A DNA stretch of 64,000 nt from assembly GCA_973895155.1 (NCBI GenBank), contig OZ316892.1:2855223-2919222 (forward strand). The letters are read 5' to 3'. Positions 27,701-64,000 of the stretch are shown here, piece by piece. How positions within the stretch are numbered: the stretch's first letter is position 1; every line of letters begins with the position of its first letter. Below the pieces are notes generated by a model. The model saw only the letters and a program-made list of their open reading frames with translations, did not search any database and was not told the origin of the DNA. The DNA is from Marsupella aquatica. Taxonomy: Eukaryota > Plantae > Marchantiophyta. Position numbers and translations under genes: made by a program.

Positions 27701-30700
27701 GGGCAGTACAGTTCCTGAACTTGACTTCTCACTCAACTTGTTTATGTGGATCCCATTACGACTAGAACTACACGAGCAAACAAAAGGCAGTCCGGCGGTG
27801 CCACCAAGTGCAGATCGGCGCATGTTTGAAATGCTGTGTGTCTTATCACTCCCACCAAAACAGTCTGAAACAAAGAGAGCAAGTGTTGCTATCCTTTGAT
27901 ACACACTCAATTTCTGATCTCCCTTTTGAGACGTTTCGAGACGAGCAAGCAGTTGCTGAGCTGAGAGGGCCATGACATCGAGCTCTTCATCCTTCTCTCT
28001 GCAACCACAGCACAGCTTGTTTCAGGCTTCCAGTGGACAAATTTATAGTTCTCACACCAACCAAACAAGAAGTCAGACATACAAATCTCATAGACTGCAG
28101 GACCATACATATTTGTGATGCGCACCAAGATAATCTCCCAAAATAGAAGGCCAATCGACTCATACTGGATAGATAGTGTAGTCTTCAACTTCTGATGGTA
28201 ACTACGATTTCTTAGCCTTGAAGGCATGTCCACTACTTGGAAAAAAGTTGTCCCACTGGTAAATACCTGTCGACAAGGATGACCTCTCGTGAATCAAAGC
28301 ACAACTGCTCTTTCTCCAACACCTCGAGAGGTAAAAATGGACGATCGCGTCCAGCGTCATAGAAGCCATCATGAAGACGATCATCGAATCCAACAAAAGA
28401 CTCAATGCAATACTTAAAGGAGACTTCCGAGAACCCCTGCACGGACCTCCTCCTTTTAGTAGGTTTCGGGTTCCTATCCCTGTCGCTATCTTGTCTTCTA
28501 GGGGTTTTGGTGCCTGCCACTGAGATGCAACTATTCAAACTTTCACTGGTTTCCTCATTCGCATTATCCCCTTGGTCCTCCTCCAGGCTCGCTTCCTGTA
28601 CATCCAGCTTAGATCTGTCTCCACTGATGGCCTTTCTACAGCAATTTTGCTCATCTAAAGAACCTGCATTAGTTTCAATTTGGAATGCCTCCAATTCGAC
28701 TATAGAAGATTGTTTGTGGTGATGAGTCCTCACACTTTTCTTCACCGTATCAGTAACATTGCCTGCTTGATGAGGATCATCTGCCTGCAAATCAGTTGAT
28801 GGGATGACAACATCAGGCTGCTCGATATTCTCTCCACCGGTCAAGTCAACTACTCTCGGATGTGGCTCAAATGATTCCATCAACTTGTTAGCAACGTTCG
28901 AAGGCTCAGACTCCCTCTCTGCCTTGGCCTGTGAGATATTCTCTGATGATCTATCCTTTCCACTTATCTCAAAGCTGCTTCCTCGATCAGAGCTACTTCC
29001 AGTCACAGTCACATCAGCCGCGTCTCCATTCTCTTCAAACCTGTGCTTTCTGCTGCTGTTGAGTCTATCTTGTCTAGCCTTTTGTTGCTGATTATCCTGC
29101 TTTTTCCAGCCTCGCCTTCCCTTCACTGTCACATGAACTTTCGAGCTTCCCGGAGTTCCTTTTGCAGCTGGAGCAGGCGGGGTACGATCCCCATTGCCTG
29201 CTTCAACCACGAAGGCAACCGTCAAAACATGGAATACAACAGGAATAACCACAAAATGTACTTTTGTCATACGAAGACAGTTACATCTTTCGTTGGTCAT
29301 CTTACAGAACTAATTAAAGCTCACCATCGATGCCATCTGCACTTTTCGGGTCCTCAGAAGGTTCCCAGTCCAGAAGATAATCCTCCATCCCAATTCCGGG
29401 TTGATCCTCGCATTTATTCTCTTTTAACTGGAGCTTCTCATTACCATCTAGCTTGCAGACAATCCAATCAGGAACTTCTCCAATTTGCTGTAACTTGTTA
29501 AACTACAACAAACAAGAGAAAAATGTCAGTAAAAACCTAACTTGAGTAAAAACTATGAAATTCAGAAAAACGCACATCGGGAATTTCTAAGACCCAATTC
29601 TCTATAACAGAACAAATCTCACTATGCCGTGAATCGTACAAGAAGACCACATCTTTTAGAACAGACCACATGCATAAAACTAAGAATTACCTGCGCATTC
29701 AATATTCTTAGAGAGGTCATCGAGGGAAGTCGAAGCGAACTCAAGGACACAAGTCGGTTATGGGACACATCAATACTTGTCACCCTCGGAAGATCTGTCA
29801 GCTCAGGTGGAAGGTCCACCAACTTGTTACTTGCGACTCTGAGAGTTTTCAGTGATACAAGGCCGGCAAGTTCTTTCGGCAGTGTTTTCAGCTTGTTGAA
29901 GGAGAGATCCAGCTCTTCCAAATTCTCCAACATGCCAAGTTCAACAGGGACCCACCTGCATTGCACAACACCCAGATTATTCGGTGCTACTCGGAATTGT
30001 GGCATCCTCAGAAGACTTTTAAATTGTGAAACAGCAAAAGTTCTCACGGAGCATTGCTACGGTGGGTGACGCTTTCTGACAAACTCCTTCTCTCGAAGAT
30101 GTATGCATTGTCAAAGGAACATGATCCTCAATGCGTTTTGCATACGTTGCGGCATTTGATGCCATCGAATGAGACTGTTTTGGAAGAGTTTTGATGACAT
30201 CGAAGTTAGATTGGAATGGCTCTTTGGAATGAGTCCAAAATACGATTGGAAGAGGCCTTTCCATGTGAGGAGATGTGAGATATTCACATGGTCTCTAGGA
30301 CACCGTGTGGATGAAAAGTATTGCTAAAAACATTCTTCGCATGGAACACAGGATTTACTGTTCGCACAGTATGGTTTTAGGGATAGACTTATCCGTGAAA
30401 AGATATGTTCATGAAGTTGTTCATAAACCACTTCGTTACAATCCGAACACGTTATTGGAACAGGGAGTAGCTAACGCACATGCACCCAACGCAACCGGTA
30501 GCACGGAAAGGCTCAAGGGACAAAGCTGTAGGGAAATCAGGACCTTGGATACAACGAGGTAACTGCAATTCGTAGAGATACTCTACTAGCGCGCTGAGGC
30601 AGACTATTGAGTAGAAAATCAGGTCACTTCTGCAGCTGAGCAGCAAACAAGGTTGGCGGCTATCCTGTGGGGAGAACAAACCCCGTTTATGTTCCTGCTA

Positions 30701-31710
30701 CTACAGTTTCAGGATCCCATGTACCTTAAGACTTCCCAAAAAACAGTGAATGCTCCAGGTTACAGACATAATGCAATTCCAGGATCAACTCTGATACTTT
30801 GGCTCAAGTAAATGTTAAAACCTTTTATTTTACAGACATCATGAAATGCACCAAGTCGAGCACTAACCATAACACATAAAGCCGGTAAAAGATCTTCCAC
30901 ACCGGGCTGTGTAAGCAATGCTTGATCTGTTCTGATTCAAGAGAAAAACCCTCAGGGTTTCTTAAATTCAAGAGTAGATACGAAATGCACATGAACTTAC
31001 ACTTCTACTCAGAAAAAAAGGCATAAGTCGGGCAACCAAATTCAAGCGTGTGGTGGGGTTTGAATTTTAAAAACTTACGAGATGGCGAAATGACAAATAG
31101 AAAGGCGCGTGAGAGAATGAAGTTGTGCAATCTCACGGGAGAGAGACGAAGCTGATGGGCGGACTGGAACTTGATGGAGTTCCAACGCCTTTAAAGACCT
31201 AAGCTTGTCAAGGGGCGGCAAACTTCCAAGGCCCGCAGGCGACACTTTCAAGAATAAATGCTCGAGCTGAGTAAGTTCAGCCAACTCCTCAGGCAGTGTC
31301 CTGACCTCATTGGAGAAAAATTTCAGCTTTCTCAAATTCTTATACTTTTGTATTGACGCAGGCAAGACTGTGAAGGTGTTGTCAAACACAAACATATTCT
31401 TCACTTTCGCAGCCTGCTCCTTCTTCGCATATCCCAGCGAAGACACTGAGGACCCACTTGGAGAGACGTCCACAATTTCCTCTTCATCCGACCGTTCAGG
31501 GTTTCTCACTTCCTCGTCTAGGGTTCTCTCTGCGTTTACAACATTGGATTCTTCCTTCGCCTCTGAAGCACCTGTGTGAACCAGACTGCTCTCCATGAGC
31601 TCCTGCTCATCTACCATTTTTGTCCCCTTTTCCCCATTCCGGCGAGCGTCCTGCGAAACGATTTCCGCTCCAGTGGTGTACGACTCAGCCTCCGACACTG
31701 ACAGATCCAT
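24734..31710 (-). CDS. Cytoplasmic LRR + EDR1/CTR1-like domain + Ser/Thr protein kinase (resembles the Arabidopsis AT1G04210 family), 11 exons, 1302 aa
   Basis: Exons: 31710-31079, 29955-29691, 29502-29325, 29197-28267, 27998-27581, 27449-27268, 26912-26747, 26428-26192, 26081-25722, 25482-25381, 25171-24734 (3909 nt, GT-AG, phases consistent). LRRs (LEELDLSFNKLKTLP), DGFYDAGRDRPF, GVCRHRAILFKYLCD, PCELVRGYLDYMPHAWN; kinase motifs GHGASG, AAK, HRDIKSSN, DFD, GTPRWIAPE, DLWSFG. Confidence 0.93.
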
Positions 31711-32989
31711 ACGAATACACTCCAAATTCGCATGAAAATGGTCGCCAGAGCAATCAGTGACTAAAATAGCCAAAGAGCCGATAAGAACATGCCCCGGGCA
31801 CAACAGCTCTCATTTCACGTGCCCTATTCTGAAACATTGCGCCAGTCTCCAAAGCAGCATGACGGAGGAGTCACTGGTCCCCGAGGCATGCCAACTTAGG
31901 CGCACGACGAGTTCCAAAATAATCAGTTAGCAACGAGAGTTGAGGGCTCTTGCTGAGGAGAGTTTCTCGAACAACTGTATGAATGGACGCATGTTCCACC
32001 CTACCTCATTGAATTGCTTACTTGCAGGGCACGCCAACCGTATCAATTCCGCTTCGGTGAGAAGCAGAGAAAGAACGTGGGCCGTTGGCTCTCATCAAGA
32101 TTGGTGCCGAGGACCAAGAGTCAAACGAATGGCTCACGTGTACATCATCCCTGCACCTGCCCACCTATCCAAATGCTCCATGACGAGAATGTCGTCTGGT
32201 GATGCACGAGTCGTCCCCAGTCCAGTGAAGAACGGCGTGCACTCCTCTCCAACATCGACACCATGGAAGAGGCAGAATAACAAAATTTCTCAGGACACAT
32301 AACAGAGGACCGATTCCGCACCAACGTCTGCCACCTCTCGGACTAGCTCATTCGCACTCTCACCCCCGCCCTGCAAATAATGACCAGGGAATCATCCGAT
32401 TTCAATCGTCGACAAGAGCAGAGTACGTCACCCCACATATAAAAATAAATTATAATGCTCCAATACCGTGGGCCCTGCCAAGCCTATAGCCGTAAGCTCC
32501 GGTTCCTCCTCTTCTTCTTCCACTTCCTGCGCCGCAAACCTGTTCCCTCCGTCCCTTCTCACAACGGCTTTGCAAAAGCAAACCCGCTCGAATTTAAACC
32601 AAACGCACTCTCCTCTGCCCCTTTGATCGTAGTATCGAGCACTGTTCCTCCCCTTCCTCCTCGCGTTCAGTCCGTACTCAGTAGTAATAAATAAGTAGTA
32701 ATCTGGTCCGTCCTAGCACCAGTCTAGTATGCACCCTCTCCTCTCCATTGTAGTTCACTCGTATGCTGTCTCTGCACTCTCCCCTCGTCTCCGCTCCTCA
32801 CTGCTTTCCTCATCCCTTCTTTCACTCCGGCCGCTCGTGCGCCAACATGCAATGCAGGCAGACGGAGCGCCAGAAGAGCAACAACCAAAACCACATCAGC
32901 ACTTCAGCAGCAGTAGCAGCAGCAAAGAAAATGCCTCCGCGCACGAGAAGTTGAAGCAGAAAAAGGACCAAAATCGAGGCTGCGAAGAT

Positions 32990-36070: not shown

Positions 36071-36620
36071 CTACGTCAAGTGTTCATTGCTGCAGAAAAT
36101 TTCACAATAGCCGCATTTGAATACTTGATGCCGGCCAAACTCGTAGAATCCAACCAATTCAATATTCACCCTGTGCCCATCAACTCTATTAGGAGCCCTC
36201 CACTGTGCACCTATTGCAGTGAACTGATGTTGTAGCCATATCTCAGTTTGAGAGTGGGACCTTAAAGATTTATAATTTGCGCCACTAAAACTAGTCACCT
36301 GAGCCTTTGCCTCTTCCCAAGTGCAGTAAATCCCAGGACTCCTACCCTTTGCAATGGCATACACATATCTCCTCCGCCCTTCTGGTCCGGACGCATTGAC
36401 AGCCACACATCAAAACGGGCTAGTCACATCATGAAAACCCCATGCAGAAACTTGTGTGAAAGTGAATCCAATAAAAACTGCAATACGGTAAAAATCAATT
36501 GGAACATGAACCATATTGTCTTCATGTAATCGCAAAATTTGGGTGGTGGGGGCCATAATTCCATGGAAATTCCTGAACCATGTCTTTCGGCCATCCAAGG
36601 TTGGGCCATAAACTTCACAC
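36071..36620 (-). pseudogene. Interrupted ORF containing an RNase H1 N-terminal hybrid-binding (Cauli_VI / viroplasmin) domain
   Basis: YVYAIAKGRSPGIYCTWEEAKAQVTSFSGANYKSL matches the HBD consensus YAV..GR.PGIY.TW.E...QV..F.GA.YK.F. ORFs 36410-36598 and 36071-36406 are in one frame separated by a TGA. No catalytic RNase H seen. Confidence 0.8.
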
Positions 36621-47546: not shown

Positions 47547-50500
47547 ATGTCTACAAAATGTGTGTTTGAACTTGCACACTTGGAATCCGCCTGCAATGCT
47601 GCGAGTTCTCCCCACACTCAACCTGTGCCCATGTCCAACGCTTTTTTGCAACAGAGCTTTCCCACATTCAAGAATGGATCAATGTTTTCGCGAGTGGACG
47701 CTCTGGATGAAGCAGTAACTGAACCACGTGAATTGTTGGCGACTCTAGCGACAGATGATGTAGCACATGCATTGGATGGCATTCAGCGCCATGTGCTTGA
47801 CCTGACTTTCGATGATGATCGAGTGGTTGAGAATGAGGACAGGCCACTCCAAACTCCATCGATACGTAGAAGCCATAGTGACTATTCTAGATGCGACAAA
47901 GTTCAGATACCTCCTCTTGGAAAATTTGAATACACGGCTTTGGAGTGGTTTGGATCAAAAAAGGATTATGCTTGGATTCCAGAGGGTAGGCTGCAGGATT
48001 TCATATGGGGAGAGAATATGCGCGAGAATTTCCATACTGATTGCACCACTCGACACATGGTGCAAAATCAAATCCACAAGACTGGTCCGTTGGTAAAGAC
48101 CACAACCTTATACTGCTGTTGCTTCGGCCCAGAAGATTACAGAGGGTGGAAATCCAACAGAGTGCCTAAGAATCTGAAATCTAAAGATGCAGGTGTCTTT
48201 TTGAAGAGAAAAACCATAACAGGTGACTGTCAGTTTTGCATTTCACTGTACCTCTTTTGCGTGAATTTTTGTAGTTCAATGCCTCGATTCATGCTTGGCT
48301 TCTTTAGCATGTTCTCCAATCTGAATTGTATGTGCACCACCATGCCTTCCCTGTAGGAATGTGTGTACGTTGCGGTTGCAGATGTTTTTTTATTCCACAA
48401 AATATGAGGACCGGCCAGGGGCTATACTCATAAAGTGGATCCGCAAAGATCATTTGGACAGGCAAAATCAACTTTGTCACGGCCTCCATGATTCGAGTGC
48501 CTTTGAAGCTAATGCACACATTGCCCCCAGGATTTCCCTAAAGCTACGCACCAAAATTGAGCGATCTCTAAGGGCAGGGTTGACAGCTCGAGCAATTGTT
48601 GATGCCCACTTTGAAGAGATTTTGACAAGATGGCTAAAGACCACCCAGATGAGGATGCAAATGTAATCATGTCTAGGGACACGCAGCTTACTCCGCAAGA
48701 TGTGCAGACTATGAGGGATTCAATGCGAAGGCGACAACCAGACTATTGTTGTGACAAAGCGCAAGCTACCAAATTGTGGGTGCTTCAAAATGCAGACCAA
48801 GTCCTCTTATATCAACCGCAAATAACATGTTCAAACCAGCCTTTCATTCTATGTTGGTCATCTCCTTGGCAGCAAAAGAAGCTATCGCTTCTTGGTCATG
48901 ATGGACCTATAGCATTTGATGCAACTTTTGGTACCAACCACTTTGGAGTAAGCTATGCATTCACCATATCTTATTTGCAATTCCTTGCCATTTAGAATTT
49001 TTGTTCACTATTGTAGACATTTTTTACTCGCTTTTGTATTGTATATACCACGACTTTTGGTCATTGTTGCCGACATTTTTTACTCACTTTTGTATTGTAT
49101 ATACCACGACACTTATAAGTTTTGTTTTGTTTTTCATTGGCAGTTCCCTTTCTACACAGTTATTGTGTATGACAAATTTCAAAATGCCATTCCCGTAGCA
49201 TTTGCTCTTTTGCAAATGTACAAAGCCCTACAAGTTAGCCAAGTCCTCACAGCTGTGAAAGATAGCGTGAATGCCAAGAGGACAGAATTGAATTTGCAAG
49301 TTCCGTGGACACACCTACCTGTTGGATTATTGATGTAGCGGACGAGGAACAAGCAGCAATCAGGTATACTGTCGGTAAATCAGATCACTTTTCATCACTG
49401 CTGCAGTCTTTCTTATGAAATGCGGGCCATCAAATATATTCTCATGCAAATGTGTTATCTTTGCAGACAGGTTTTCCCCAAAGTTCCTATAACATTTTGC
49501 ACTTGGCACGTTCGAAGAGCCTGGACCAAAAACATAATCTCCAAGGTTTCTGCCCCTTTGCCAAAGGCCAGATCAATGCAGATCTGGGCGCTCTCATGTA
49601 TTGTCATGCAAGCCCGGATGGAAGTGGTGAGAACTCTGTCATTGCTTCTAATCTATTGGTTGTGTGCTTGTATTATGTTGGACCTGTGCTTGTAATGTGT
49701 TGGTTGTACAACAGTAGTTCGGCAATGTGGATTTATTTGGAATTCCAAATGCTAATATTGTGTACATTACTTGACAGACATGACTGAAGAGTCCCAAGCT
49801 TTTATAGATCGATGACAACTTACCCAACCGGTATTTGTAGCATATTACAAATGGGAGTGGCATAACAAGGTTGCCAATTGGCACTAGTAGAAACCGGGGG
49901 GTATTTAGACCCCATTAAACGACTATTCAGTACCGTATAGGACTTGGAAACGACTGGGAAGGACTCTAGTCCTTTATAGGACTGCGAGTCGTATGTTTTG
50001 TTACTATAATCAACTGAGTCCTTTATAGAACTGGTTTATAAGTCGTTTAATAGACTGGATTTTCAGTCTATTTTAGTCTTTGTGTGGGTAGCTTTGGTGA
50101 GTCGTTTTCAGTCTTTTATGGGCTGCGATGATGAGTCGTTGGGAACGACTAAAAAGGTTATGGAGGGTAGTCTTTAAATATACTTTGTGGGGTATGTATA
50201 AGTCTTTCATGTCAATTGGATATGAGTGATGAAGACCCCACTATACTACTTGGAATGAACCCACTCTTGTGCACAAATAACATATTGCATTCATGTTTTA
50301 TTGTGTACTTGGAATGAACTCACTCTATAAGTTCACCATTCATCATGTTAACATTAGAATACATAGTTTCAGAAAGCCATCTTCTATACCATGTACACTA
50401 ATATGAATTCACAGATTCAAACTTCATAGACTACAAAGAAGGTCACAAAGTATTCCTCTATACCATACACACTAATACTGAAATGATAAAATAGATTCAA

Positions 50501-52567
50501 GTATCATAGACAATCACCATAGAGCCATAGTTTGACATCAATCACTTGTTTCATACATACAGAATTCAGAAATATCAATGTCACACACAGCGTCTCCTTC
50601 ATCCTCTTTACCAAATGGAAAAATTGGTACAGATATTTCTTGGATCTTTCCAAGGCAATGTCAAAATGTGACACAATTCACATGATTCTATCTACACTTG
50701 CATTCAGTCACTGCAGACTAACACACTCTGATGGCCAGAGCACAAGAGATCCTACTGCATCTGCAATTATTTCCTGAGGTGGATCATCGTCTCTATTCGG
50801 AAATGGCAAATTACAATCAGATACAATCACTGTAGTCAACAACACTACTACATGGTCATCCGGGACCACTTTGCCATGGAATTTTGCATGATCCGGTCGC
50901 AAAATGCCTGTACCCACACATACCTGCGAGTCATCCTCCCATGATAGAAGATTATGGACTGGCTCTGCTGTGGCTATCACCTCCACCTTACCCTGGCTGT
51001 TTTTCTTGGCTTTCCTGGGTGGGTACAGTTCAGAGGGTACAATCATGCAAACCATAATACAAATGGGGGCATCGAACGCTGGCACCACACCCTCAAGATG
51101 GAGTTGAAGGCGGGTAGGTACAGCATTATGGGACGGTCCATTCCTTGGCTACTTGGTCGCTTGAGAGTTATCAAGAATCACTATTGGTGTATTGTTGCTG
51201 ACAAGTTCCATGGGCAAATTAGAAACAAAACAATAGAAGGCCTTGTGCATAAGTCCCTCACAAGAGCCAAGACAATCCCAGATGATTACGTGCAAACATT
51301 TCAGTGTGGGCTGGCCAAGTGTGCATCTGTTAGAAGCACTTCCTCAAACAATCCCAGCACCAAGGAACATCTTGTCACCGACTGGGACAAAGACAGTTGT
51401 CAATGCACATGTGGGTATTCACTTCAAGGGAATGCATGCAAACATCAGGTATTTCCATTTACTTTCTACTTCTTCCAAACTGCTTCCGTCTGGTCCTGAA
51501 TGACTTGCTCCTACAAATTTTTGACGCCTCTAGCTTAACCTTCACTTTCCATGATTGACATGCAGATAAAAGTTCTGCTGGTTACAAAGAAAATGACGGA
51601 GTTGGAGGTCTTGCATCAACTCGGAACAAAGATGGGATCATTTTCGGGGGGCCTCGACCACCATTTCAAACGGATGCATGGGGAATGCTCAAAGTTGGCT
51701 TCTGAGGTTGGGAATATTAGTATCACATATCAGGATGAGGATTGTGGGAACAACCAACAGATCACGCAAGCCAGGTACCACTGCCTTCTCCACCCGTGGA
51801 GGAATTTCAAGCAATTGTTACCACATGTTACAATCAAATTGCGTATCACCCGACTCTTGCCAAACAAGGTCTGATTGAGCTCAAGAATTGGATGGAGTCT
51901 CTCTTCACCAGAGAGGCACAACAAAATGTTGCAAGGCTGGAGGTACAATCAGCACAAGAACCAATCACTCCTGTTGAAGGGAGTGACAGGACGACAGTTG
52001 CCAAACGCGGCTGGGTAGATAAATTGATGGGTGCAAAAGGCAGACGCAAGCGCAAGGGGAAAGTTCCGGTAGAGTCCAACAAAGAAAATGTCAATCCGTA
52101 TCCTCCGGGTGACCCACGGAATTTGGTGAGCGGGCCAAACGCACCTGAGAAGCTGCGCGTAAAAAAAAGGAAAAGGCGTTATCATTCCAAGGCAAATTTG
52201 ACAAGGAATCTGTAGACGCCCTTGCCGACATGTGCCTTGCCATCACAGACCAGGCTGCTACCAGGGCAAAGGGAGAATGTATGAAGCCCTTGGCGTCAAA
52301 GGCAACACGGAGGACCAAAATTGGGTAGCCCCTCCGTTTCCGCTTACGAACGTAATTAACCAGGCATCCAAATCCGCTGTACTGAAATTGCCTCTGAGCC
52401 AGGCCAGTATGGATGTCATTGGAAATATCCAAATTGGCTCCAGCCAAACATGGGCTATGTCGCCCAACTTTCCAGATGTTTTACGTGCCTTCTCCACAGG
52501 ATGCGCAAGTGACACCAATGCAACACCGACTATAGATAGAAGAGCATATAGTCTCCATTGTGGATGA
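47547..52567 (+). mobile_element. Decayed Mutator-like (MULE) transposase with N-terminal Zn-binding region, DDE core and SWIM finger; interrupted at 49882-51019
   Basis: YCCCFGPED, CGC..F, H.....CHG, APRIS, FDATFGTN, VYDKFQNAIPVAF, CTWHVRRAW, YYKWEWHNKVANW|VQFR...TNGGIERWHHTLK, CQCTCGYSLQGNACKHQ (SWIM). Several frameshifts and GT-AG introns. TIRs not located. Confidence 0.88.
49882..51019 (-). mobile_element. One-ended CACTA fragment (3' terminus plus C-terminal domain of a TnpA-like gene)
   Basis: Starts CACTAGTAGAAA with gact/agtc subterminal repeats. Encodes CVGTGIL...FHGKVVPDDHVVVLLTTV...LPFPNRDDDPPQEIIADAVGSLVLWP, paralogous to 55978-56200. Flanked by TGG at 49879-49881 and 51020-51022. 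Confidence 0.88.
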
Positions 52568-52879
52568 ATAGTTCATACTTCACATGTCTCAGTTCGCCAA
52601 GGTCTCCTGTACTGAAACATTATTCCAAACATTTGTAGTACATTGAATATATTAACAAAGTGGTCCAAATGTTTGCCCCAGTACTATGATGCCAGTATTT
52701 GGACTTCAATGGAGAACAATCCCAGATTGGTGCTTCTTATATTGTTTATGTCCACAAGGTGTAACAAATAAATGGCAACAACACAACAACGACACACATG
52801 CATGTACTTTAAGAATGTTATTAAAGAGGTTGGAACAAATGAATAGAGTGTCCAGTAGTACTTGTACTCAGATGACAAT

Positions 52880-55480
52880 ATAAAGTGAGCGTTGGAACAT
52901 ACATTGGCCCGATAAGGTGAATGTATCATACTACACATTCCATTCCCCGAACGGCCTTCATTCCATGTGCGTAGAACCACAGACAAATTCATAGAGCGTT
53001 GAAACAGAAAACCTTCATTTATTTATCCAAGATTGCTTTCACAAATTGCCCTTCCAAACTACAGATGGTCGACTTCAAAATGGCAGGCCCTAAACAACAT
53101 CAAGGACCACATATATGTAGTCCTTCAGCAACTAAATCAAAACAGGCCCGACCCAAAACAAAATTTGGTCCATCCGGTCACCCAGTCTTTCATGTGTCTC
53201 GTAAAGTTGTGTACCCACTGTGAATATTCTAACAGCCTACAGTAGATCATCGTCATCCAAACCAAATGGAGCATCACTGATAGACGCGGTTGGGCTATTC
53301 AATCGGGCAACAACTTTTTGCAGCTCTGCGGTTTGAGAAGACAAGAAAGTATTTCGTTCCATTATGTCCGTCAATGGTGTGGACCTCCTTTACGCCTGTG
53401 AGAATTGTTGGGATGCAAGGATTGCTTCCGTTTGGTTGGGGGAAAAAGCACCTCGGCTTGGAACATCGTCATCTTCCACAACATCTGCAATGGGGGTCCA
53501 TTGTTTTCGGTCGGAAATAACAGAGGTGTTGTATTCACTTTGGGTTCCGTCATGGTAGGTGGAACATGTACATTGGCATGGCGTGACGGACTTGGCACAT
53601 TGGATGTGGAGGCCTGTAGCAATGGATCCGCAATATTTTTTACTGGGGGGGCCTCCGGGATTGCACCATGTGATAGAGGATCATCGTTTGTGGCCCACCC
53701 TACCTCGTTGGCAAACATCTGGCGTGCCAAATCTGGGAACATTTCAGTGGCCTCCTCATCTAGACAACGTTCTTCATCCTTCCGTGAAGCATCAAACTCG
53801 TCAATGGGCTCATCATCTGAGGTGTCAGTCCACTCTGCCTCCGCTTGAACCTGCACAATAATGGCCAATTCCACACATGAAGGTTTGATTCATTGAAACT
53901 GAACAGGTTTGTGTTTCAACACATTACAATACAATGATCATCGCGGTAATGCATGACCAACTGATTTTAGTAGTGGTTGTTCATCAAATTACCTTCTTCA
54001 ATGCGATATCATCACTACAAGAGTTAGACTTCTTATACATGGCCACGATGTTAGGTATGTAAGCCTGAACCGCCTTGGGCTTACGATCTGCCTTCCAAAT
54101 TGCATACTCCTTGCCCTGAGTCTGAAAACGTGGCCACCCATGCTCCTCTTCCCATAGTAGACTGTCGCGCTTGGTACGCATCCAGTTCAGAGCATCGTTA
54201 CACAGGTCTGCCCGATGCAGTGCCATGGCATCATGGATTTCAACAGACTCAATTGATGCATCAACTGGTTCAAAGAAATTCCTCACTACTGTAGCACTTC
54301 GGATCAGTCTTCCACTTTGAAACTCATCTAATTCTGCAAATGCACTATCTTTAATATCAAATAAAGCTCTGCTGGTCCATGACAATACATGGTGAATTTG
54401 GGCTTTGCAAAACCAGGGCCTGCAAGCGAGCCCAATCACGATCATTGGTCAGACTGTCCCACACGTGGAAGTCGAGTTTGGGCATCATAAACTGAAAGAA
54501 AATTAAGAACATGTTTTGAGATGGAACTGTTGGTGGGGGGTTCTGTAAACGGTTTTGTTCAAACCGGGTGACAAACTTGCTTTGCGTCGTTGCCCTGCAA
54601 CACAGACATACAATAAGCCACGGTGCATGGTCAGATGCTAGATGGGACAGATCAATTGCTTCTGAAAAACACAGTGACCGTGGGGAGTGAAGCGTTCAAC
54701 GTAGAAAGGCACATACTTCACCCTTCTTTTGGCCATGCTCCAACGTTGTCTCAATGTCCCTCTCACATTGTAGTAATTGGGCGAGCATTCAGCCCCTGGC
54801 TGCTTCCGCCGTGCAACATTCCTTGCCTCATGTTGTTGCTGTGCAACAACGTCTCTAGTATACAGTGACCGAGGGGTCCCTTCACTAATCAGACCATGCT
54901 TCTTGAAAACATGGTAATCGTATGTGCGAAGGTTTTTGAAAGGCACATTCTTACAAGGCAACGTCTTGCACACAGAGCCATTAAAGTATCAAGAGAAATG
55001 AACTCCCTCTTTAGCCTAGCTTGGATGTGACTGTTGATTCCTGTTCACAAGTGTAAGAAATGGTGAATACCACTACACAATTGCAATTGTACAAGAAACA
55101 CACGTAAATAACTCATAAATTAAATCACGTACAAACATGAAGACAGTGTGGATCCCTTCTTACAAATTTGCACATAGCACATGGTTCAGGCAATGCTGCA
55201 CATTCACACACATGTGCAGGCTTCTGGTCCAAAGTCCCCGCTGGAGATAGTAGGTCTGGAGATACGCGGTAGGGAGTGCGGGCCCCTGTCTTGGGGGTTG
55301 GATCAGACTCCTCTGCATCATTGTTGGATGCATCTATGTCTACATATTTCACCTGTGCCTTGCCTTTTGTTTCGGTAAATCGGGGCTGTTCATTATACTG
55401 AACCCCAACCTTAGCTTGTCGTGGAGTGAACCTGCTGGATGGAACAGGGTTCGGCAGTTTCCTTTTCTTCCCACTTCTAC
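52880..55480 (-). pseudogene. Decayed multi-exon gene of unknown function convergent with the MULE transposase, cut at its 5' side by the CACTA insertion
   Basis: Long ORFs 55125-55352, 54638-54973, 53984-54445 and 53371-53874 with splice-like borders (tgtgcag|gttcaagcg; aag|gtaatt). Cys/His cluster CECAALPEPCAMC and CKTLPCK...H...KH. Confidence 0.55.
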
Positions 55481-55977
55481 CACTAGTAGAAATACCCCCT
55501 ATTTTTGACCATAAAATACGACTGACTATGACTAAAACCGGTCATCTATGACATTAAATCACTGACGTCGTTCTTGCAACTAGTAGTCGTAAAAGTGGTG
55601 ACTTGGATTGACTTAGTCATATTATTGACTAGTGTCAATAGTCTTTTTAGTGACTAGAGGGTCAAGTATTTAGATCTATACATCAGTCAAACATAAGTGT
55701 TTAGAATGACTTAGTTCAAGTCATATAGGGTTTTCCATGAGTGATTGGTAACACTGATTTGACCGCACTAGTTTCCGTAGACAATGATGTCATTCATATT
55801 CGAGACTGAGTCATTCATGCCACAAAAGCACCAATCCAACTAACAATGGCATAATAACAGAGTAAAAATATGAGCAATCCATCAAAAAACAGAGTATTAC
55901 CCAACATCATGTACTCAAAATTGTGGCCATATATTGAAACAATCCTTCACATTTGAGTCTCAAATTGTACTTGGTAC

Positions 55978-58852
55978 CTAACACTCTACAAATTTCTTTG
56001 GCCACATCACAAATAATTCCACAGCATCCACAAGATGGATGTGTGGCGGATCATCTCCCTTGTTTGGAAAGGGTAGAAGATATTTTGGCTTACTGACAAC
56101 AGTCAGTAACAACACAACATGATCGATCAGCAAGTACCTTCTTTCCATGGAAAGTACTTGCTTCAATTTGAAGTATGCCGGTCCCAACACAAACACCAGA
56201 ATTATCAGTTGCCATTAGCCTAGAAGACTGTGCTACAGTGGTCACTGCTGTCCCTTTTGGAGAATTAATATTCCTCTTCTTCTTTGGTGCCTTGTAAAGC
56301 AAAGTTTCCTTCCACTGTTTCTGGTCCTCATCTTTCCCATGTTCACCAGTGGTGGGGATTGAGAAAACTCATCTCCAATACCTGGGGGAGGCTGAGAGTC
56401 TATGAAAACCACATCATTCTCATCACTTTGCTTCTCTTGTGAATCTGAAAATTTGGTAGCCTCTAAGTTTTGTCTCCTCTTCCTGCCTGCTAGATTTGGC
56501 ATGCGTACCTCCTCCTGTGTTGGCTCTGTACCTCAATAGCAGCCACAAATTCCTTCATTAACAACTAAGCATATTTGCACTAAAGCTCTCAACAACCATC
56601 AAGTTTGCACTAATTGAACATACATCGCATAGATACTCAACCACATTAATAGGCCAGACAGAGGATTCAAACCAACATTTACTTACTCTCAATGATAGTT
56701 GTACCAGGTTCGATGATCTTTGGATCTGCTACAGCCACTGCAATTTGATCACCTGATGCACAATGTAACAAACCTTGAGGATCTAGAACCTGAACCTGAA
56801 CCATCCTGCACCCATGAACCTCAAATTCCCAGGTAAAGTCACGGTACACTAAACATGATTTCAGATGACACATACCACTCTTCTTTGTAGGCACAACTTC
56901 CTCAATATTTGCAGGCTCATGTAATGGATGTGCAATTGGGTGCTCAACCCTGCCAGCAATGTGCATCGCCCGCAACTCACGTAATTCAGTTTGTACTTCC
57001 CTTAAGGTTGATCCTTGGCTTTGAAGAAGACTGGCTATGTCCTTGAATTGACTCTTCATCTCAGTCTCGACTGATGGCCAAGCATTCTCCACAGTCTTCA
57101 ACCGGTCTGATATCTATGTAAGGGTAGACACTGCTCCCTGCTATATATGACATACACCAACCAAACGGCTCTTCTCAGCAATTTTACAATTGCATAAGGG
57201 CTGACAGTAATGTGCATCTAAAGAAAGATTGTACAACAGATTGTCCATCAATAATGCTCCTAAATTACCTGTTTAGATCCAACGCTGCCTCATCACACTT
57301 TAACCTTTTGATTTCTACCACAACCTCCTCTTTTGTGGGTTTCTCTCCAGTAAGCTTTTTCTGGAGCACATAAACATTGCAAGACACGTTTCTCAATGTC
57401 AATCTTGCCTAAACGTACCATGCTGCTACAACTACATACAGTCAACTCCAATATTGAAATGTAAATACAGATTTGTATGGCATGGGAACCCAACCAATTT
57501 GGCTACTACTGGTGCATGTCCTCCCCTCCCTGTAAGCGTAGGATTCTTCACTACATTTCTAGCATCAATCATTTGTGCAAAATTCTCCTGTCCTGCCCTA
57601 GACAAGAATGTCCCTCCCAGTCGAGCCCATTGTTCTACATGAACACTTGGGGGTGCTTCAGCATGTGGTTTACTGCCATCAACAATCCATGCTTTGTGCA
57701 ATCGATGCCTCTCTGTTTTCATGATAGTCCATACTCTGCAAGACAATCAGCTGACCCCTTTCCCAGAATTCCCCAAATATTCCCATTTATCTCGCATATA
57801 TTTGCAAACCAGTTCCCAGTCAGATGGATGTTGACAATTAAAGTTAGTACAGCTAATGTCCAACCATCGTAGACACTCCATTCGCAGGTCATTGTGCCAT
57901 CTATTCTTTCCAGCACTCATCGTTGTGATCCGGCCTTCATCATCAACTTCGACAGTACCCAACTTCACATTCTCACCTCTCCCAATGCTCCCTGATGCAC
58001 TACTTGGTGTTGCAAATCTAGGAGTTCCTCCCCCATGGCCTGCGCAGGGTGTGATAGGGTTATTTGAAAAGAGAAACGCAATTAACACCATTAATATCAT
58101 ATGGTCTCTGTGAATTACCTGATTTAAATACTTTACTTACAATTGCCGTAGAAAATACCTCCTCCCCTCCGCAGAGTCTCTGTCGGTTGGATTGAAGGTG
58201 CTGGTGCTGGTGCTGGTGCTGGTGCTGGTGCTGGTGCTGGGTTCCCACCATACCCACCATAACCTTGCCATCCTATCCCCATTGGATGAGGACCTCCCAT
58301 GAATTGCCCCGATGGCCCCATTGACCCTCCTTCATACATATTTGTGGGCTGTATACGGTCCCACATTGGACTTACATCAAACCAGGCAAATTGTCATACT
58401 CAGACCCACATCTATTGAGGAACACAAGTAGCCAATTGCAGCTCAAAATACACTTGTCCACATTCATGAAACAAATTCAAATGTTCACACTTACTTGGCC
58501 AAGTAGGACCCATATAGCTGGCAGAAGGGCCTACACCCATAGACCCGCCATAGTTATTGCCCCCCTATCGTGCTTGCGGCCAATTATAGTTGGGGGCATT
58601 AAATTGCGGGTTATTGCAATTGTTGTTGCTCGGGGCTTGGGCTGAGTATACAGAGGGCGTTGGTCGAGATCTCATAGAAGTTCCCCCAGTTGCCTTACTG
58701 CAAGCAGGCTTTGGTGGAGGGGTAGGATTTGGCATGTCATCATCCGATGACATGCTAGCACTTGCATTCGGATCTTGGTCAGGATCATATTCTGTATCAC
58801 CACCATTAGGCATGCAATCCTCTACCTCATTCTTATCAGGAGATTCAGCCAT
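55978..58852 (-). pseudogene. CACTA TnpA-like accessory gene (Ptta/En/Spm type), multi-exon, decayed
   Basis: Pro/Gly-rich N-terminus, WELVCKYMRDKWEY, MKTERHRL...PPSVHVEQWARL...ARNVVKNPTLTGRGGH, coiled coil, C-terminal LPFPNKGDDPP...DAVELFVMWP. Confidence 0.75.
58196..58240. repeat. (TGCTGG)n hexamer encoding (PA)n in the TnpA-like gene
   Basis: About 7 units read directly. Confidence 0.92.
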
Positions 58853-59086: not shown

Positions 59087-62000
59087 TTACATATCCAAAA
59101 TAGCCTCTTGCACATCACCCAACAGGGCTGCGGCACATTGCTGAACCCATGCTCGGTGTTTGACAGCTTGCTTCTCATACTCACACATGCCATTTTTGTC
59201 TGGCATCCTACTCACCAAGTTATTGCGGTTGCACAAACAAGTCATCCATTTATTGCTCATATTTGCTACTCATTGCACTTCAAAGAGTCACCTACTCACA
59301 ACAAAACATATCCATCTACTCATCATCTTCGTCCATCTCAACTTCAACCTCTCCCTCATAAGTCTGTCTCACTGTCAAGGGGATGTACTCCCTGGTCCCC
59401 TGGCCCCGATGTACAATGCCTACTGCCGGCTGTTCAAAGGCCCCATGTGCATCCAAACTGAACTCTATTTTAGTACCCTCCATCCTTCGAACTCTAGGTG
59501 AGCTATGGCAGACTACACGCCAACCACGAGACTCCTCCACATCTTAAAAAAAAACTTGCTCAACTTGACTTGGGAACACAAAAGGCTCCATCCATTCTGC
59601 CAGTCTTTGGTTAAAATTGACCTTTAGAAAGCCATCCATATCCCGTTTCATGGTCGCTCTTGGCCCATGCCAATCTGGCTTCACCCATGAACCTTTCATT
59701 AGCATGATTTGTTGTGATGTGTTCCCATAATTCAGTGCCCAGATGTCTGCCAACTCCCCGACATATCCCATCTCCATGCAGCCCCTGTTGTTCTAAGCAT
59801 CTATATGCTCAAACACACATATTACCCCCGAATTATATGTCACTAAATGCTTGTCCTCGTCATCATGCACACGGTACTGATTCCCATATGCTTTCATCCA
59901 TTTATACCGCTGTACAATATGTCTGGGAGGCACAGACAAGAGGAGAACATCTCTATCCATGTTTGGGTTCCGCCTGCTATGCTCTCAAATTGTTGTCCTG
60001 ATCCACTCAGGAAAAGTAGGGAATGCCTGGTGATTTAACCCTAATTGGGGGGCCTTCTGCACATTATATTCCCTGCATACAATGATGACAATGAGAACAA
60101 TTTCTCAATACAATGTACATATCCTACCAAAATGGATATGAATAAAGAAGGAATGCAGGGAGGGTGCGGAAACATGAGTACTCACTGCCACCAAGGTTGC
60201 ATCATGATTGTATTGTGTAACACATATAAGTGTGCTACATCACAAACTTCTGCAGACAATTGCAAGGAAGTAAAAGTGCCTTGAAGAACCTCTCCAGCCA
60301 CCCCCTCTTCTTCCTCAACATCCCACACCCTGCTCGTAACACTGTCTACACCAGCCATGTATTCTGTTAGGAACCCCAAGGTCTCTTCTTGAATGTAACC
60401 GAGAGCCATGGTTGCTTCAGGCCTGTAATAAGTACGTACATGGCCTTTTAGCAACTTCATGTACCGTTCCATTGGATACATCCACCTTGTACTCACTGGG
60501 CCATAGTGGCCCAGATCTTCAACCGCATGGATGATCAAATGAGTCATGACATCAAAAAATACTGGCGGGAAATAGATCTCCAAGTCACAAAGCACACGCA
60601 CAGTATCTGCCTTTAATTGAGGAAATGTTGTAGGGTCCCACACCTTCACACAAATACGGCGAAAGATCTGACACAATCTCAAAATGACATTGCGAACTGG
60701 TTTTTGCATCAATCCCCTCAAACATACTGGTAGAATGTCTTGCATCATAACATGGAAGTCATGAGTTTTCATGCTTCCCAACTTCTTCTTCCTTATATGC
60801 TTTGCAAAGGCTCCAGCATACCCAAAGGGTACTCTGAACGAACTCAGCCTAGACAAAACTATGTTCCACTCATTCTGGGTGCAAACATATGGAGCTTGGT
60901 ACTTGAATACCACACCCGGCCTATTTTGGGATTCTTGCAGCCAAAGTTGAGGACGAATGCCCTTCTCCTGAAGGTCCTTTCGTACTGCTGCAGTATCGTT
61001 GTCCCCTGACAAAAACTTCAAAAGACTTTCGCATACATTTTTCTCAATGTGCATTACATCAATGTTATGTTTGCTTGGTTCAAAATCCTGCACCCATGAA
61101 GTACGTATGATTGCCACAATTAGGTTCACTAGACATAATAACTAAAAACTATTGTGAATAGGTTCACTGAGTACAAGTGAATATGCAAATGTTACCTTCC
61201 AATACTCCAATGATGTGTCCATGATTGTCTGCCTTTTGATGCCATGCATGAGTCTTTGCTGGGTTGTTTGGCACGTCTCTAGAAGCACCATATTCATCAT
61301 AAGACACCTTGTTCAGTCCCCACTGCAGAAGTTGATCTCTACTAACCAACAGAGGAGACTCTCAAAGCTCCCTCTGGTTGTTGAAGCGGGCTATGTGCGA
61401 TGGCCTGTGCCTGAAAGGGTGGTCGGCAGGAAGATATCGCCTGTGGCCCATGAATTTGATACTGCCCAAGGAAGCGGACCGTTCAGATGTAACATCTGGG
61501 CCACATCGTGTGCAACCCAGATATCCCTTCCCTACCTGCCCAGATATCATGCTATGTCCAGGGTAGTCTGCTATCGAATTAACACACATTGCACGTAGGT
61601 TGAATGTCCTCGGTCTACCAGGTCCACAAAGTGCATCAACTATCATAACTCCATGTGTCCATAGAATAACCCATTCCTCCACAGCAGGGGCCAACCAAAC
61701 ATCTATGTTTGCACTTATAGCAGAGTTTCGGCCGGGAATCATAAGATACAAGATCACAAAAAAACGCTTGGTGGATATCCAAGGCGGGAGATTATAATTT
61801 ATCAAAGTCACTGGCTAGCAAGAATACACGTTGTTCTTGTCTCCAAATGGATTAGCACCGTCGAGGCTTAGACCAAACCTCACATTTCTGCTCTCTGTTG
61901 CAAAGTCCGGCCACTTCTCATCTATGTGTTCCAATGGTTGGAATCTCCAACATGACGTTGCAAACCATCTGTACTCTTGTGATCAGAGGTCCAAGTCATC

Positions 62001-63027
62001 ATCTTAGAAATGGATGGACACCTATAGAGGCGCTGCAATCTTGGAATGAGAGGGAAATGCCGTAGGACCTTAGCAGGTTGAGTTGACTTCCCCACGTTCT
62101 TATATCTGTGCTTTCCACAGATAGGGCAGGATAGGCAATCAGCATATTCTTTTCTGAAAAGTACATGGCCATTTGGGCATGCATGGATGGACACATAATT
62201 CAAACCAAGTTTGCTCATCACCTTCTTTGCCTCATACATGTTCTTAGGAGCAATGTTTCCAGCGGGTAGTACTGTCCTCTGTAGGAACATCAACAACTCT
62301 GTTACACATATGTTGGGCAGACGGTGACATCCACATATATTGAGGAACATCACTATGAACCCTAGTTTGGAGCAATTTGCACCACCATACAATGGGGACG
62401 TAGCTTCCTCCAAGTAGGCCCCAGCTCCCAAGAATTGACCATCATCTCCAACTCCTTCTCCAATGTCAAACTCTTCTTGGTCCGACGGGCCTGCACCATG
62501 CATGTTTGCTTCTTTGTCCCCCTATGCCTCTGCATCTTCATAAAGTGCATCCAGGTCTTCAAAAATGTCCGAAACCATCCTAGGAACATCTGCCCCGTCC
62601 TCATTAGAAGTCTCGGGACCTCCCTGTGGAACATACTCATCTTCGGCATTGTTACCTGCATGACCAGTGACGTTATGAAAGAATGCAGAGCGTCTTGCTG
62701 TATTCACATTTTCAAAATCTGCCCTCCATTCATCATCCGATGAATCCTCTTCCTCTGGCACATTCCACACCCTGCGGACTGGATGTCTTCCATGCCTTTG
62801 AAGATGAGAATGCACTTGGTTCAGGGTCATCGAGTGGTATCCTCGACATTGCATGCAGGGGCATCTCATCCGGGCATTTCTGCCCGGCTTGCTCTAAGCA
62901 CCTCTCTATTCCACAACTTGGAGTCATGACGTGCAATCCTCAGTGGGTGATGCAAAGGGAGTCGCAGTTCATTGGTATGTGTCTGATTCCTTTGCCCCAA
63001 CTGTCCATCCTCATTTGCCTGATCCAT
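59087..63027 (-). pseudogene. CACTA TnpD transposase, with stops and frameshifts
   Basis: RCPCMQC..HL.RHG, IHACPNGHVLF...CPICG, KVLRHFPLIPRLQRLY, RNVRFGLSLDGANPF, YNLPPW, IDVMHIEKNVCESL, KTHDFHVMMQ, FFDVMTHL, GPVSTRWMYPMERYM, EPFVFPSQVEQVFF. Confidence 0.95.
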
Positions 63028-63438
63028 ACCTTCAATTGTCGTAGGCACACCTTGGCTATGTACCCTTTGCACTAGACAGGCTTATACAATTGCATATTCT
63101 AAGTACATGGAGGGACACATGCAAGTTTCATGAAGGAAATATCACAGACACGGTGTACACTCACTATCAAGTCCGCTCTGTGCTGGCGCTTGACCTGCTC
63201 ACGTATCATCTGCTCACTGCAGGCAGCAACATCATAACAAACTTGCTATAATCAGTGAGGTGCTTGGTCGTTGACCAATCAATGGTACAACGTACATCAT
63301 ACACTGCCATACATCTCCAAATGCAAAACCCAGACATTTGGAGGATGAAAAGGAGTAATGTCTTATAGACCAAAAATAACACACAAAACTTTATTTCAAA
63401 AATGTAATCGTCTAGCATACAGACAGTTGAGACCTTAC

Positions 63439-63993
63439 TTCTTCATAATCATTAGGGCTAACAGAATCATACGCACTATCAGAAAACTCTTCATCCGTGG
63501 TCTGGAACTCAGAAGTAACATATTCTGGGTCGTCATAGGGAATGAATGGCTTTGCTGGCCATACTTCATTTAAATCAAATTTATGCTCATCCAATCGCAT
63601 ATTTTCCGAAAGTGACTGCCTGACCCATTCAGGGCAGACCACACGCAGCCCATGTGCGATGAGCCATCATACCACAGACTTTCCATACTCTCGGCATGCC
63701 TTAGAATATGAATGAGCAATGACATGGGTGGTCTCATTAGTGAGCTTCTCAATCACTGTACCACCTCTTCTACTGATCTCCCTCTTGAAACGACAGACCC
63801 TATATGGCTTGATAGACTTGTCAAGTATAACAGCCCTCACACCTCTGAACATTGTACAGTCTGGGATGGGTTCTGTCTCATATGGGATAATGTTGTTGTA
63901 TACTTTTGTGATCTGGTCAATAGACGGAACCCTACTCCCACCTCTCCCTGCAATTCTACGAGCCTTGTGCCAATCTCGACTATCTTTCATCAT
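63439..63993 (-). pseudogene. BRCT-domain exon (DNA polymerase lambda-like) upstream of TnpD, one in-frame TGA
   Basis: MFRGVRAVIL...FKREISRRGGTVIEKLTNETTHVIA...*WLIAHGLRVVCPEWVRQSLSENMRLDEHKFDL has the F.G / GG / THV / W...S hallmarks of BRCT. ORFs 63667-63993 and 63412-63642 are co-frame. GTAAGG donor at 63438. Confidence 0.82.
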
Positions 63994-64000
63994 TTGGACG

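What the first reader, a model, noticed from the sequence alone, without database searches (positions are those of the whole stretch)
63439..63993. CACTA transposon with a Pol-lambda-like BRCT module directly upstream of TnpD
Seen: a complete BRCT-like sequence (63852-63571), co-oriented ~0.55 kb upstream of the first TnpD ATG (63027). It is broken only by one TGA, plausibly a CGA deamination like other lesions in this element. It ends in a GTAAGG donor, and a decayed exon-like stretch (~63330-63165, GTGAGT donor) follows. Known: canonical CACTA elements encode TnpD and TnpA only, and the BRCT of X-family polymerases engages Ku/XRCC4-LigIV in NHEJ. From recall, the spacing MF.G...R....K..I...G......THV.A resembles the plant Pol lambda N-terminus. 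Inference: this lineage captured a BRCT, either spliced onto TnpD or as a separate gene, to recruit or compete with end-joining machinery at its own breaks. I know of no description of this architecture.
Basis: partly seen in the sequence, partly recalled or inferred. Interest (0 to 1): 0.85.

Follow-up and report, generated by a model that had tools for sequence, protein, structure and literature searches.

The report
Plant transposon carries tandem BRCT gene
A multicopy plant cut-and-paste transposon carries, just ahead of its transposase, an extra gene for a DNA-repair docking module (a BRCT domain, likely doubled and likely related to that of repair polymerase lambda), which may let the element interfere with how the host mends the breaks it makes.

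Summary
The BRCT is real: Pfam BRCT and BRCT_2 both pass their cut-offs. It belongs to the repeat unit of a multicopy CACTA family. In public runs it sits at 0.8-0.9 times the depth of TnpD, contigs bridge it to TnpD, and the TGA reads CGA in 4 of 4 runs. It is probably not a TnpD exon. The ORF runs off the window edge and matches, gap-free (42% over 186 aa), the last two-thirds of an unnamed family of stand-alone 264-321 aa proteins with two BRCT repeats. The proposed linking exon has stops in all three frames in sister copies, and one sister family lacks the donor. A Pol-lambda origin is moderately supported but not by PDB ranking. The Ku-contact pair is half kept. Likely role, inferred: a polymerase-less docking decoy acting on end joining at the element's own breaks. 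The 5' TIR, expression and the relatives' context are untested. I found no paper on it, and the scan had not noted it on other DNA.

The parts
63412..63999 (-). C-terminal two-thirds of an accessory gene (ORF0): linker helix, BRCT repeat, acidic tail, stop. The frame is open at the window edge; by alignment the start would lie near 64374 and a first BRCT repeat would lie beyond the window
63853..63999 (-). Linker between the two BRCT repeats (long helix in the model of the relative P0022)
   Evidence: gap-free match to P0002 residues 126-174; model
63571..63852 (-). BRCT domain (repeat 2 of the family)
   Evidence: Pfam PF00533 and PF16589 above cut-off; PDB hits
63667..63669 (-). Premature TGA, private to this copy (CGA in sister copies)
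63415..63570 (-). Acidic Ser/Thr-rich tail, conserved in P0002, P0003, P0006 and P0022
   Evidence: alignment A1
63028..63411 (-). Non-coding spacer between ORF0 and TnpD. It holds a GTGAGT donor at 63164 and candidate acceptors at 63099 and 63072, possibly a 5' untranslated intron of TnpD. No TIR or subterminal repeats were found
59316..63027 (-). TnpD transposase gene, decayed in this copy (stops and frameshifts); catalytic motifs at 61865, 61571, 61060 and 60484
   Evidence: Pfam; motifs; sister-copy differences
55978..58852 (-). Second, spliced ORF in the usual TnpA/ORF2 position; no Pfam family found; its C-terminus matches that of a second CACTA end in the window
55481..55725 (.). 3' terminus CACTAGTAGAAA with short subterminal direct and inverted repeats; flank ends in TAC
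   Evidence: depth step at this point

Best explanation
The window ends inside a multicopy CACTA transposon that carries a third gene upstream of TnpD, and this gene likely encodes a stand-alone protein of two BRCT repeats and an acidic tail that is predicted to act as a polymerase-less docking decoy on the host's end-joining machinery. Shown: one BRCT, its linker and tail are in the repeat unit, open in sister copies, and broken only in this old copy. Inferred (about 0.85): the full protein has about 310 aa and two BRCT repeats, like its relatives, and is not fused to TnpD. Inferred (about 0.55): both repeats come from duplication of a Pol-lambda-type BRCT. Inferred (about 0.4): when TnpD excises the element, the protein occupies the Pol-X site on Ku or binds XRCC4-Lig4 without filling gaps. 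This would delay end joining at the donor site and favour templated repair that restores the element, so copy number rises.
For: In the element: depth of the main contigs over BRCT is 0.81, 0.91 and 0.91 of that over TnpD in runs X1, X2 and X4, and 9 to 70 times that of flank contigs (X3 left out of the ratio because its contigs are short and many). Overlapping contigs at family depth run from TnpD across the spacer into the BRCT and 484 bp (X2) and 146 bp (X4) past the window edge. No TIR lies in between. Frame kept: TGA is CGA in 4 of 4 runs; 6 of 6 listed indels fall in 63082-63441 and 0 in the 559 bp of ORF above it (rough p 0.004). Stand-alone tandem form: 6 distinct full-length relatives of 264-321 aa have two repeats; P0002 matches at 42% over 186 aa with no gaps and ends at the same place; the model shows two BRCT folds joined by helices. 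Pol-lambda type: among 8 non-family BRCT proteins, P0017 (Pol lambda) scores 47.4 bits with the repeat-2 profile against at most 29.6 for TopBP1/Rad4-like repeats, and 30.1 against at most 14.0 with the repeat-1 profile. A 99/98 branch puts the family and 2 of 2 Pol-lambda-type rows apart from 14 TopBP1/Rad4/MCPH1-like rows. 0 of 15 repeats have both phosphopeptide-pocket motifs. Literature (passages read): Arabidopsis Pol lambda binds XRCC4 and Lig4 through its BRCT and is implicated in repair of transposon excision sites (PMC4444747). Catalytically dead human Pol lambda that still docks on Ku lowers gap filling below the knockout level (PMC12056208).
Against: The 5' TIR, the start codon and repeat 1 of this element's own protein lie beyond the window and were not seen. 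No transcript data bear on it. The Ku-contact pair of human Pol lambda (R57, L60) is complete in only 2 of 16 family repeats; in the window's repeat the L60 position is Arg, which impairs recruitment in human cells. PDB searches do not single out Pol lambda: Rad4 and BRCA1 rank above it, and Z is 11.0 for Pol lambda against 14.3 for PARP4 and 11.4 for REV1. The tree holds only two Pol-lambda-type rows, neither shown to be from a plant, both on long branches, and two other long-branch rows fall in the same group. The outgroup proteins were picked by similarity to the query. The one relative with DNA (L001) shows no transposase in the 464 bp after its stop. Of the A-versus-B differences visible in the ORF, 3 bases are silent and 4 change a residue, with 31 rows unseen, so no dN/dS could be computed. 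The four runs come from 2 studies of organisms very close to the window's own.
Confidence: 0.45

Rival explanations
1. Same architecture, different job: the tandem-BRCT protein is a transposon helper that scaffolds something other than Ku, such as TnpD or ORF2 at the element's ends, DNA ends directly, or a chromatin or silencing factor.
For: The Ku-contact pair is complete in only 2 of 16 repeats. Both repeats have family-specific conserved Trp/Tyr positions. Accessory genes of DNA transposons described so far mostly counter silencing (VANDAL, SET, TET/JBP; PMC12730594 passages).
Against: Both repeats score best or near-best with a Pol-lambda BRCT. The R57 position is basic in 7 of the 15 repeats that have a residue there, the window's included. 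No partner was tested.
Confidence: 0.3
2. The BRCT gene is a captured host gene or fragment that rides along without a function for the element, as other CACTA-captured fragments do.
For: CACTA elements carry captured gene fragments in their 5' region (PMC8978399 passages). dN/dS could not be measured here. The genomic context of 8 of the 9 family clusters is unknown.
Against: The ORF is intronless, keeps its frame while the spacer collects indels, and has no close host gene among 1.84 billion representatives: the best hits are 27-42% identical stand-alone relatives, apart from one 67-aa fragment at 67%. One relative exists as both an intact and a stop-broken copy, 98% identical, in CpG-poor DNA (o/e 0.32), as transposon copies do.
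Confidence: 0.13
3. The BRCT part is an N-terminal exon spliced onto TnpD, giving a BRCT-transposase fusion.
For: GTAAGG at 63438 is present in the window and in the organism-B family, and AG acceptors lie at 63099 and 63072. CACTA transcripts are alternatively spliced (recalled for maize En/Spm).
Against: The organism-A family lacks the GT and stops at TAA. The donor is phase 0, while the acceptor at 63072 would need phase 1. The intervening stretch has stops in all frames. Relatives end at the same place with a stop, and L001 has no GT there. A search for longer relatives found 0 of 229 candidates, which is weak evidence.
Confidence: 0.08
4. The BRCT gene belongs to a different repeat that lies next to or around the CACTA, not inside it.
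For: The 5' TIR was not seen, and the region is a nest of transposons.
Against: Contigs bridge BRCT, spacer and TnpD at full family depth in two organisms, and no TIR or subterminal repeat array lies between them.
Confidence: 0.04

Closest known systems
Plant CACTA (En/Spm) transposons with ORF1 (TAD, Transposase_21, DUF4218, DUF4216) and ORF2
   Same: Same four-domain TnpD, DDE-type motifs, a terminus whose first 12 bases match the quinoa TIR quoted in PMC8978399, subterminal repeats and a second ORF downstream.
   Different: The survey in PMC8978399 (section 7 read) found only Transposase_24 and Peptidase_C48 as added domains, both in ORF2. Here a third gene lies upstream of TnpD and encodes BRCT.
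CACTA/EnSpm elements with accessory genes (TET/JBP-bearing fungal EnSpm and Plavaka; 4-5-ORF En/Spm of Chondrus crispus)
   Same: Extra genes carried inside the element (PMC12730594 and PMC6431247 passages).
   Different: Those accessory genes are enzymes or of other kinds. BRCT occurs 0 times in both papers.
DNA polymerase lambda N-terminal BRCT (X family)
   Same: Full-length BRCT match (2JW5 at 30.7 bits with the family profile; rmsd 2.0 over 92 residues, 23% identity to 9G9L), no phosphopeptide pocket, and R57 and F61 equivalents kept in the window's repeat.
   Different: The domain is doubled in the relatives, has no polymerase domain behind it, ends in an acidic tail, and has Arg at the L60 position here.
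Tandem phosphopeptide-binding BRCT scaffolds (BRCA1, MDC1, TopBP1/Rad4, Rtt107)
   Same: Two BRCT folds in one chain; best whole-protein PDB hits.
   Different: The repeats are about 50-70 residues apart across a helical linker (their relative position in the model is uncertain, pTM 0.41). 0 of 15 repeats have both pocket motifs, and the tree separates the family from TopBP1/Rad4-like rows.

Membership tests
CACTA (En/Spm) DNA transposon | TnpD with Transposase_21, DUF4218, DUF4216 and the transposase-associated domain | tested here: met
   three above cut-off, PF13963 0.2 bit under it
CACTA (En/Spm) DNA transposon | DDE triad and His motif | tested here: met
   motifs found at 61865, 61571, 61060 and 60484; their assignment to the triad is recalled
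CACTA (En/Spm) DNA transposon | Terminus starting CACTA with subterminal repeats | tested here: met
   3' end at 55481; depth step there
CACTA (En/Spm) DNA transposon | Second TIR and 3-bp target-site duplication | not testable with these tools
   lies beyond the window; no genome is held
BRCT domain | Profile match above curated cut-off | tested here: met
BRCT domain | BRCT fold | tested here: met
   model of the relative P0022: both repeats match BRCT structures, best Z 14.3 and 11.4; the window's own protein was in the alignment but not folded itself
DNA polymerase lambda (X family) | 8-kDa lyase and polymerase domains after the BRCT | tested here: not met
   the ORF stops 52 codons after the BRCT; relatives have no polymerase Pfam hit
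DNA polymerase lambda (X family) | BRCT descends from the Pol-lambda BRCT | tested here: inconclusive
   for; not discriminating; no plant Pol lambda was in hand
DNA polymerase lambda (X family) | Ku-bridge contact residues R57 and L60 | tested here: inconclusive
   R57 kept and L60 is Arg in the window's repeat; both kept in 2 of 16 family repeats; mapped from human through P0017; the element's own repeat 1 is unseen
Phosphopeptide-binding tandem BRCT (BRCA1/MDC1 type) | S/T-G after strand 1 and T/S-x-K at helix 2 | tested here: not met
   0 of 15 repeats have both (motif definition from PMC10386641 passage)
BRCT-TnpD fusion transposase | Conserved in-frame splice path from BRCT to TnpD | tested here: not met
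   donor lost in the organism-A family; stops in all frames of the spacer; no RNA data

The most novel reading that the evidence does not exclude
A widespread, undescribed family of transposon-borne tandem-BRCT proteins arose by duplicating the Ku-docking domain of polymerase lambda. CACTA elements express it to take the Pol-X seat on Ku at their own excision breaks and so steer host repair toward outcomes that multiply the element: a cut-and-paste transposon with its own anti-end-joining factor.
Probability: 0.3. Interest if true: 0.85.

Novelty: new variant of a known kind. Interest (0 to 1): 0.63.

Why it matters
Cut-and-paste transposons depend on how the host repairs the break they leave, but the accessory genes known from the papers read here act on silencing. 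A transposon gene built from a DNA-repair docking domain would be a direct handle on that step. It is small, intronless and intact in apparently young multicopy families, so it can be tested by pull-down and excision-footprint assays. If it dampens end joining it could also be useful for favouring templated repair in plant genome editing. Even without that role it defines an unnamed protein family and a three-gene CACTA architecture.

Tried and rejected
No whole genome is held, so the 5' end could not be read. Word-based homolog searches with the read-through protein found 0 of 229 longer and 0 of 46 near-length candidates; with the family alignment only 3 already known members among 4108 candidates, and no plant Pol lambda came back. 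Locus scans: 0 of 178 candidates in metagenomes with P0001, 1 of 116 with alignment A2, 0 of 37 in viral contigs, 0 of 27 in prokaryote genomes; with TnpD 0 of 9 and no match. L001's downstream frame shows no similarity to the TnpD N-terminus (E 3.3); a Pfam scan of it failed on a coordinate error and was not repeated. ESM Atlas gave only generic BRCT clusters under 0.9 for two relatives; the window's own protein was not searched there. No RNA holder was listed, which says nothing about expression. The weak KH_1 hit on the linker (E 0.02-0.16, below cut-off) was set aside because the linker aligns to P0002's inter-BRCT helix. No complex prediction was run: no plant Ku was available and the element's own repeat 1 is missing. 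Paper searches for a BRCT-CACTA link found nothing relevant: 0 papers; 7 listed, all unrelated; 0; 1, unrelated by its abstract; 25 of 32 listed; 1; 25 of 218 listed; 30 of 356 listed; all judged from listings. Repbase and most subscription journals were not searched.

Full report
Observation. Reading the minus strand from the window edge gives one frame, 63999-63412, broken only by a TGA at 63669-63667. With X at that codon, residues 50-143 pass the Pfam cut-offs for BRCT (24.9 bits against 21.3) and BRCT_2 (27.7 against 27.3). The domain ends 544 bp, and the ORF 385 bp, before the TnpD ATG at 63027. Downstream lie a four-domain TnpD, a second spliced ORF and a CACTA terminus with subterminal repeats at 55481. 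A gene with LRR, EDR1-type and kinase domains at 25.6-31.8 kb points to a plant host (inference).

The BRCT gene is part of the repeat unit. No genome is held, so I laid contigs of 4 of the 8 listed public runs on the element; they come from 2 studies and two coded organisms, A and B. Depth steps up at the terminus and stays up to the window edge. For the long main contigs, BRCT depth is 0.81, 0.91 and 0.91 of TnpD depth in X1, X2 and X4, and 9, 13 and 70 times the depth of flank contigs (X3 was left out because its contigs are short and many). Contig depth is not a copy number, but the ratios suggest tens of near-identical copies. Overlapping contigs at that depth lead from TnpD through the spacer into the BRCT, and one goes 484 bp beyond the window, past the place where the start codon is expected. 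No TIR-like sequence lies between the genes (best 11 of 16 bases). The 5' TIR itself was not seen. The flank is identical over about 400 bp in runs of both organisms, so A and B are close kin of the window's organism and do not give deep independent support.

The window's copy is an old, damaged one. The TGA reads CGA at full depth in 4 of 4 runs. All 6 listed indels in 63000-64000 fall in 63082-63441 and none in the 559 bp of ORF above that (rough binomial p 0.004; two of the six may be one event). This suggests the frame is maintained. dN/dS could not be computed: 31 of 71 substitution rows were not shown, and the visible A-versus-B differences are 3 silent and 4 replacement bases.

It is probably not an exon of TnpD. 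In the organism-A family a 4-nt deletion removes the G of the GTAAGG donor and leaves a TAA stop; organism B keeps the donor. The proposed exon at 63330-63165 has stops in all three frames in the window and in both sister families (for B with the listed differences only). A 27-codon piece that is open in the window and in A is frameshifted in B. The GTGAGT at 63164 has no listed change in the sisters and may belong to an untranslated intron of the TnpD gene (inference).

It is the second half of a tandem-BRCT protein. A search of 1.84 billion representatives gave 18 hits at E up to 0.001. The best 9, plus P0012, form an unnamed family. Six distinct full-length members have 264-321 aa with two BRCT repeats, and some end in the same acidic tail. 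P0002 aligns to the window's ORF from its first residue, 42% identical over 186 aa with no gaps, through linker, BRCT and tail, and ends where the window's ORF ends. A model of P0022 (mean pLDDT 66.8, pTM 0.41) shows two BRCT folds joined by helices. The two repeats resemble each other (cross-profile scores 23-62 bits, 14 of 15 at 39.8 or more) more than most outside BRCTs, which suggests an internal duplication. DNA was obtained for one relative only, L001 (1404 bp). It is intronless, CpG-poor (o/e 0.32) and broken by a stop, while a 98% identical copy is intact. That looks like a transposon family, but no transposase shows in the 464 bp after its stop. Whether the relatives lie in CACTA elements is therefore open.

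Pol-lambda affinity is moderate. P0017 is a Pol lambda. Among the 8 non-family proteins from the search, it ranks first with the repeat-2 profile (47.4 bits; a probable Pol-lambda fragment 46.8; an unassigned repeat 38.7; an MCPH1-like repeat 32.7; TopBP1/Rad4-like repeats at most 29.6). It ranks second with the repeat-1 profile (30.1; the unassigned repeat 30.8; the probable fragment 20.0; all others at most 14.0), and repeat 1 was not part of the original query. In a 34-row tree a 99/98 branch separates the family, P0012, both Pol-lambda-type rows and two long-branch rows from 14 TopBP1/Rad4/MCPH1-like rows. Against this, PDB searches put Rad4 and BRCA1 above Pol lambda, put it level with BRCA1 under the full profile, and tie it structurally with several BRCTs (Z 11.0, rmsd 2.0, 92 aligned; PARP4 Z 14.3). 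No plant Pol lambda was in hand.

Binding surfaces. None of 15 repeats has both motifs of the phosphoserine pocket (definition from PMC10386641, passages), so a BRCA1/MDC1-type reader is unlikely. Human Pol lambda docks on the Ku bridge mainly through R57 and L60 (PMC12056208, passages). Mapped through P0017, the window's repeat keeps R57 and F61 but has Arg at 60, and L60R impairs recruitment in human cells. Both positions are kept in 2 of 16 family repeats, and a basic residue at 57 in 7 of 15. The element's own repeat 1 is unseen, and the plant Ku surface may differ.

Mechanism. Shown: a three-part order of BRCT gene, TnpD and ORF2 in a multicopy unit with an open BRCT frame in sisters. Inferred: the product is a two-BRCT protein with no polymerase. 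From the literature: Arabidopsis Pol lambda binds XRCC4 and Lig4 through its BRCT and has been implicated in repair of transposon excision sites (PMC4444747, passages citing Roy 2013 and Huefner 2011, which I did not read). A dead Pol lambda that still docks on Ku lowers gap filling below the knockout level. My best guess (0.45 overall) is a decoy that occupies this site at the element's own breaks and shifts repair toward sister-templated restoration. A helper role with another partner is the main rival (0.3).

Comparison and novelty. A survey of angiosperm CACTA domain architectures lists only Transposase_24 and Peptidase_C48 as additions, plus short captured fragments (PMC8978399, passages and section 7). 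Accessory genes in EnSpm-type elements are known in fungi and a red alga (PMC12730594 and PMC6431247, passages). Eight paper searches found no BRCT-CACTA link (listings only; Repbase and most subscription journals not covered; supplements not opened). The scan's notes hold no look-alike, but they list three other unchecked cases of an extra gene upstream of a CACTA-type transposase. Verdict: a real, apparently undescribed CACTA variant with a new accessory protein family; function inferred only. Interest 0.63.

Noticed in passing
window 49882-51148: A second CACTA 3' end (same first 12 TIR bases, richer subterminal repeats) with its own ORF2 C-terminus, 36-51% identical to that of the main element; it is cut off near 51000.
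   Followed up: partly
window 50948-52567 (+): Mutator-like transposase fragment with a weak SWIM zinc finger hit (E 0.006, below cut-off), abutting the second CACTA end.
   Followed up: no
window 52600-55480 (-): Spliced gene of no Pfam family into which the main CACTA inserted at 55480; several diverged copies of 55000-55416 occur in each run, so it may itself be transposon cargo.
   Followed up: no
window 25668-31809 (-): Host gene with LRR, EDR1/CTR1 peptidase-like and protein kinase domains.
   Followed up: no
window 63415-63520: The acidic tail carries a conserved Ser/Thr-Asp-Glu-rich motif shared with P0002, P0003 and P0022; it recalls casein kinase 2 docking sites of XRCC1/XRCC4 (recalled, not tested).
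   Followed up: no
P0012 (protein only): A 146-aa single-BRCT relative that scores 68 and 82 bits with the two repeat profiles and keeps both Pol-lambda Ku-contact positions; a candidate for the pre-duplication form.
   Followed up: partly
window 60999-62442: One 1451-bp contig at about 70 times flank depth in run X4 indicates a very homogeneous, probably recent expansion of this family in organism B.
   Followed up: partly
window 36074-36409 (-): Isolated RNase H1 N-terminal (Cauli_VI) domain, E 1e-13.
   Followed up: no
window 58189-58246: Short tandem repeat encoding a Pro-Ala run inside ORF2.
   Followed up: no
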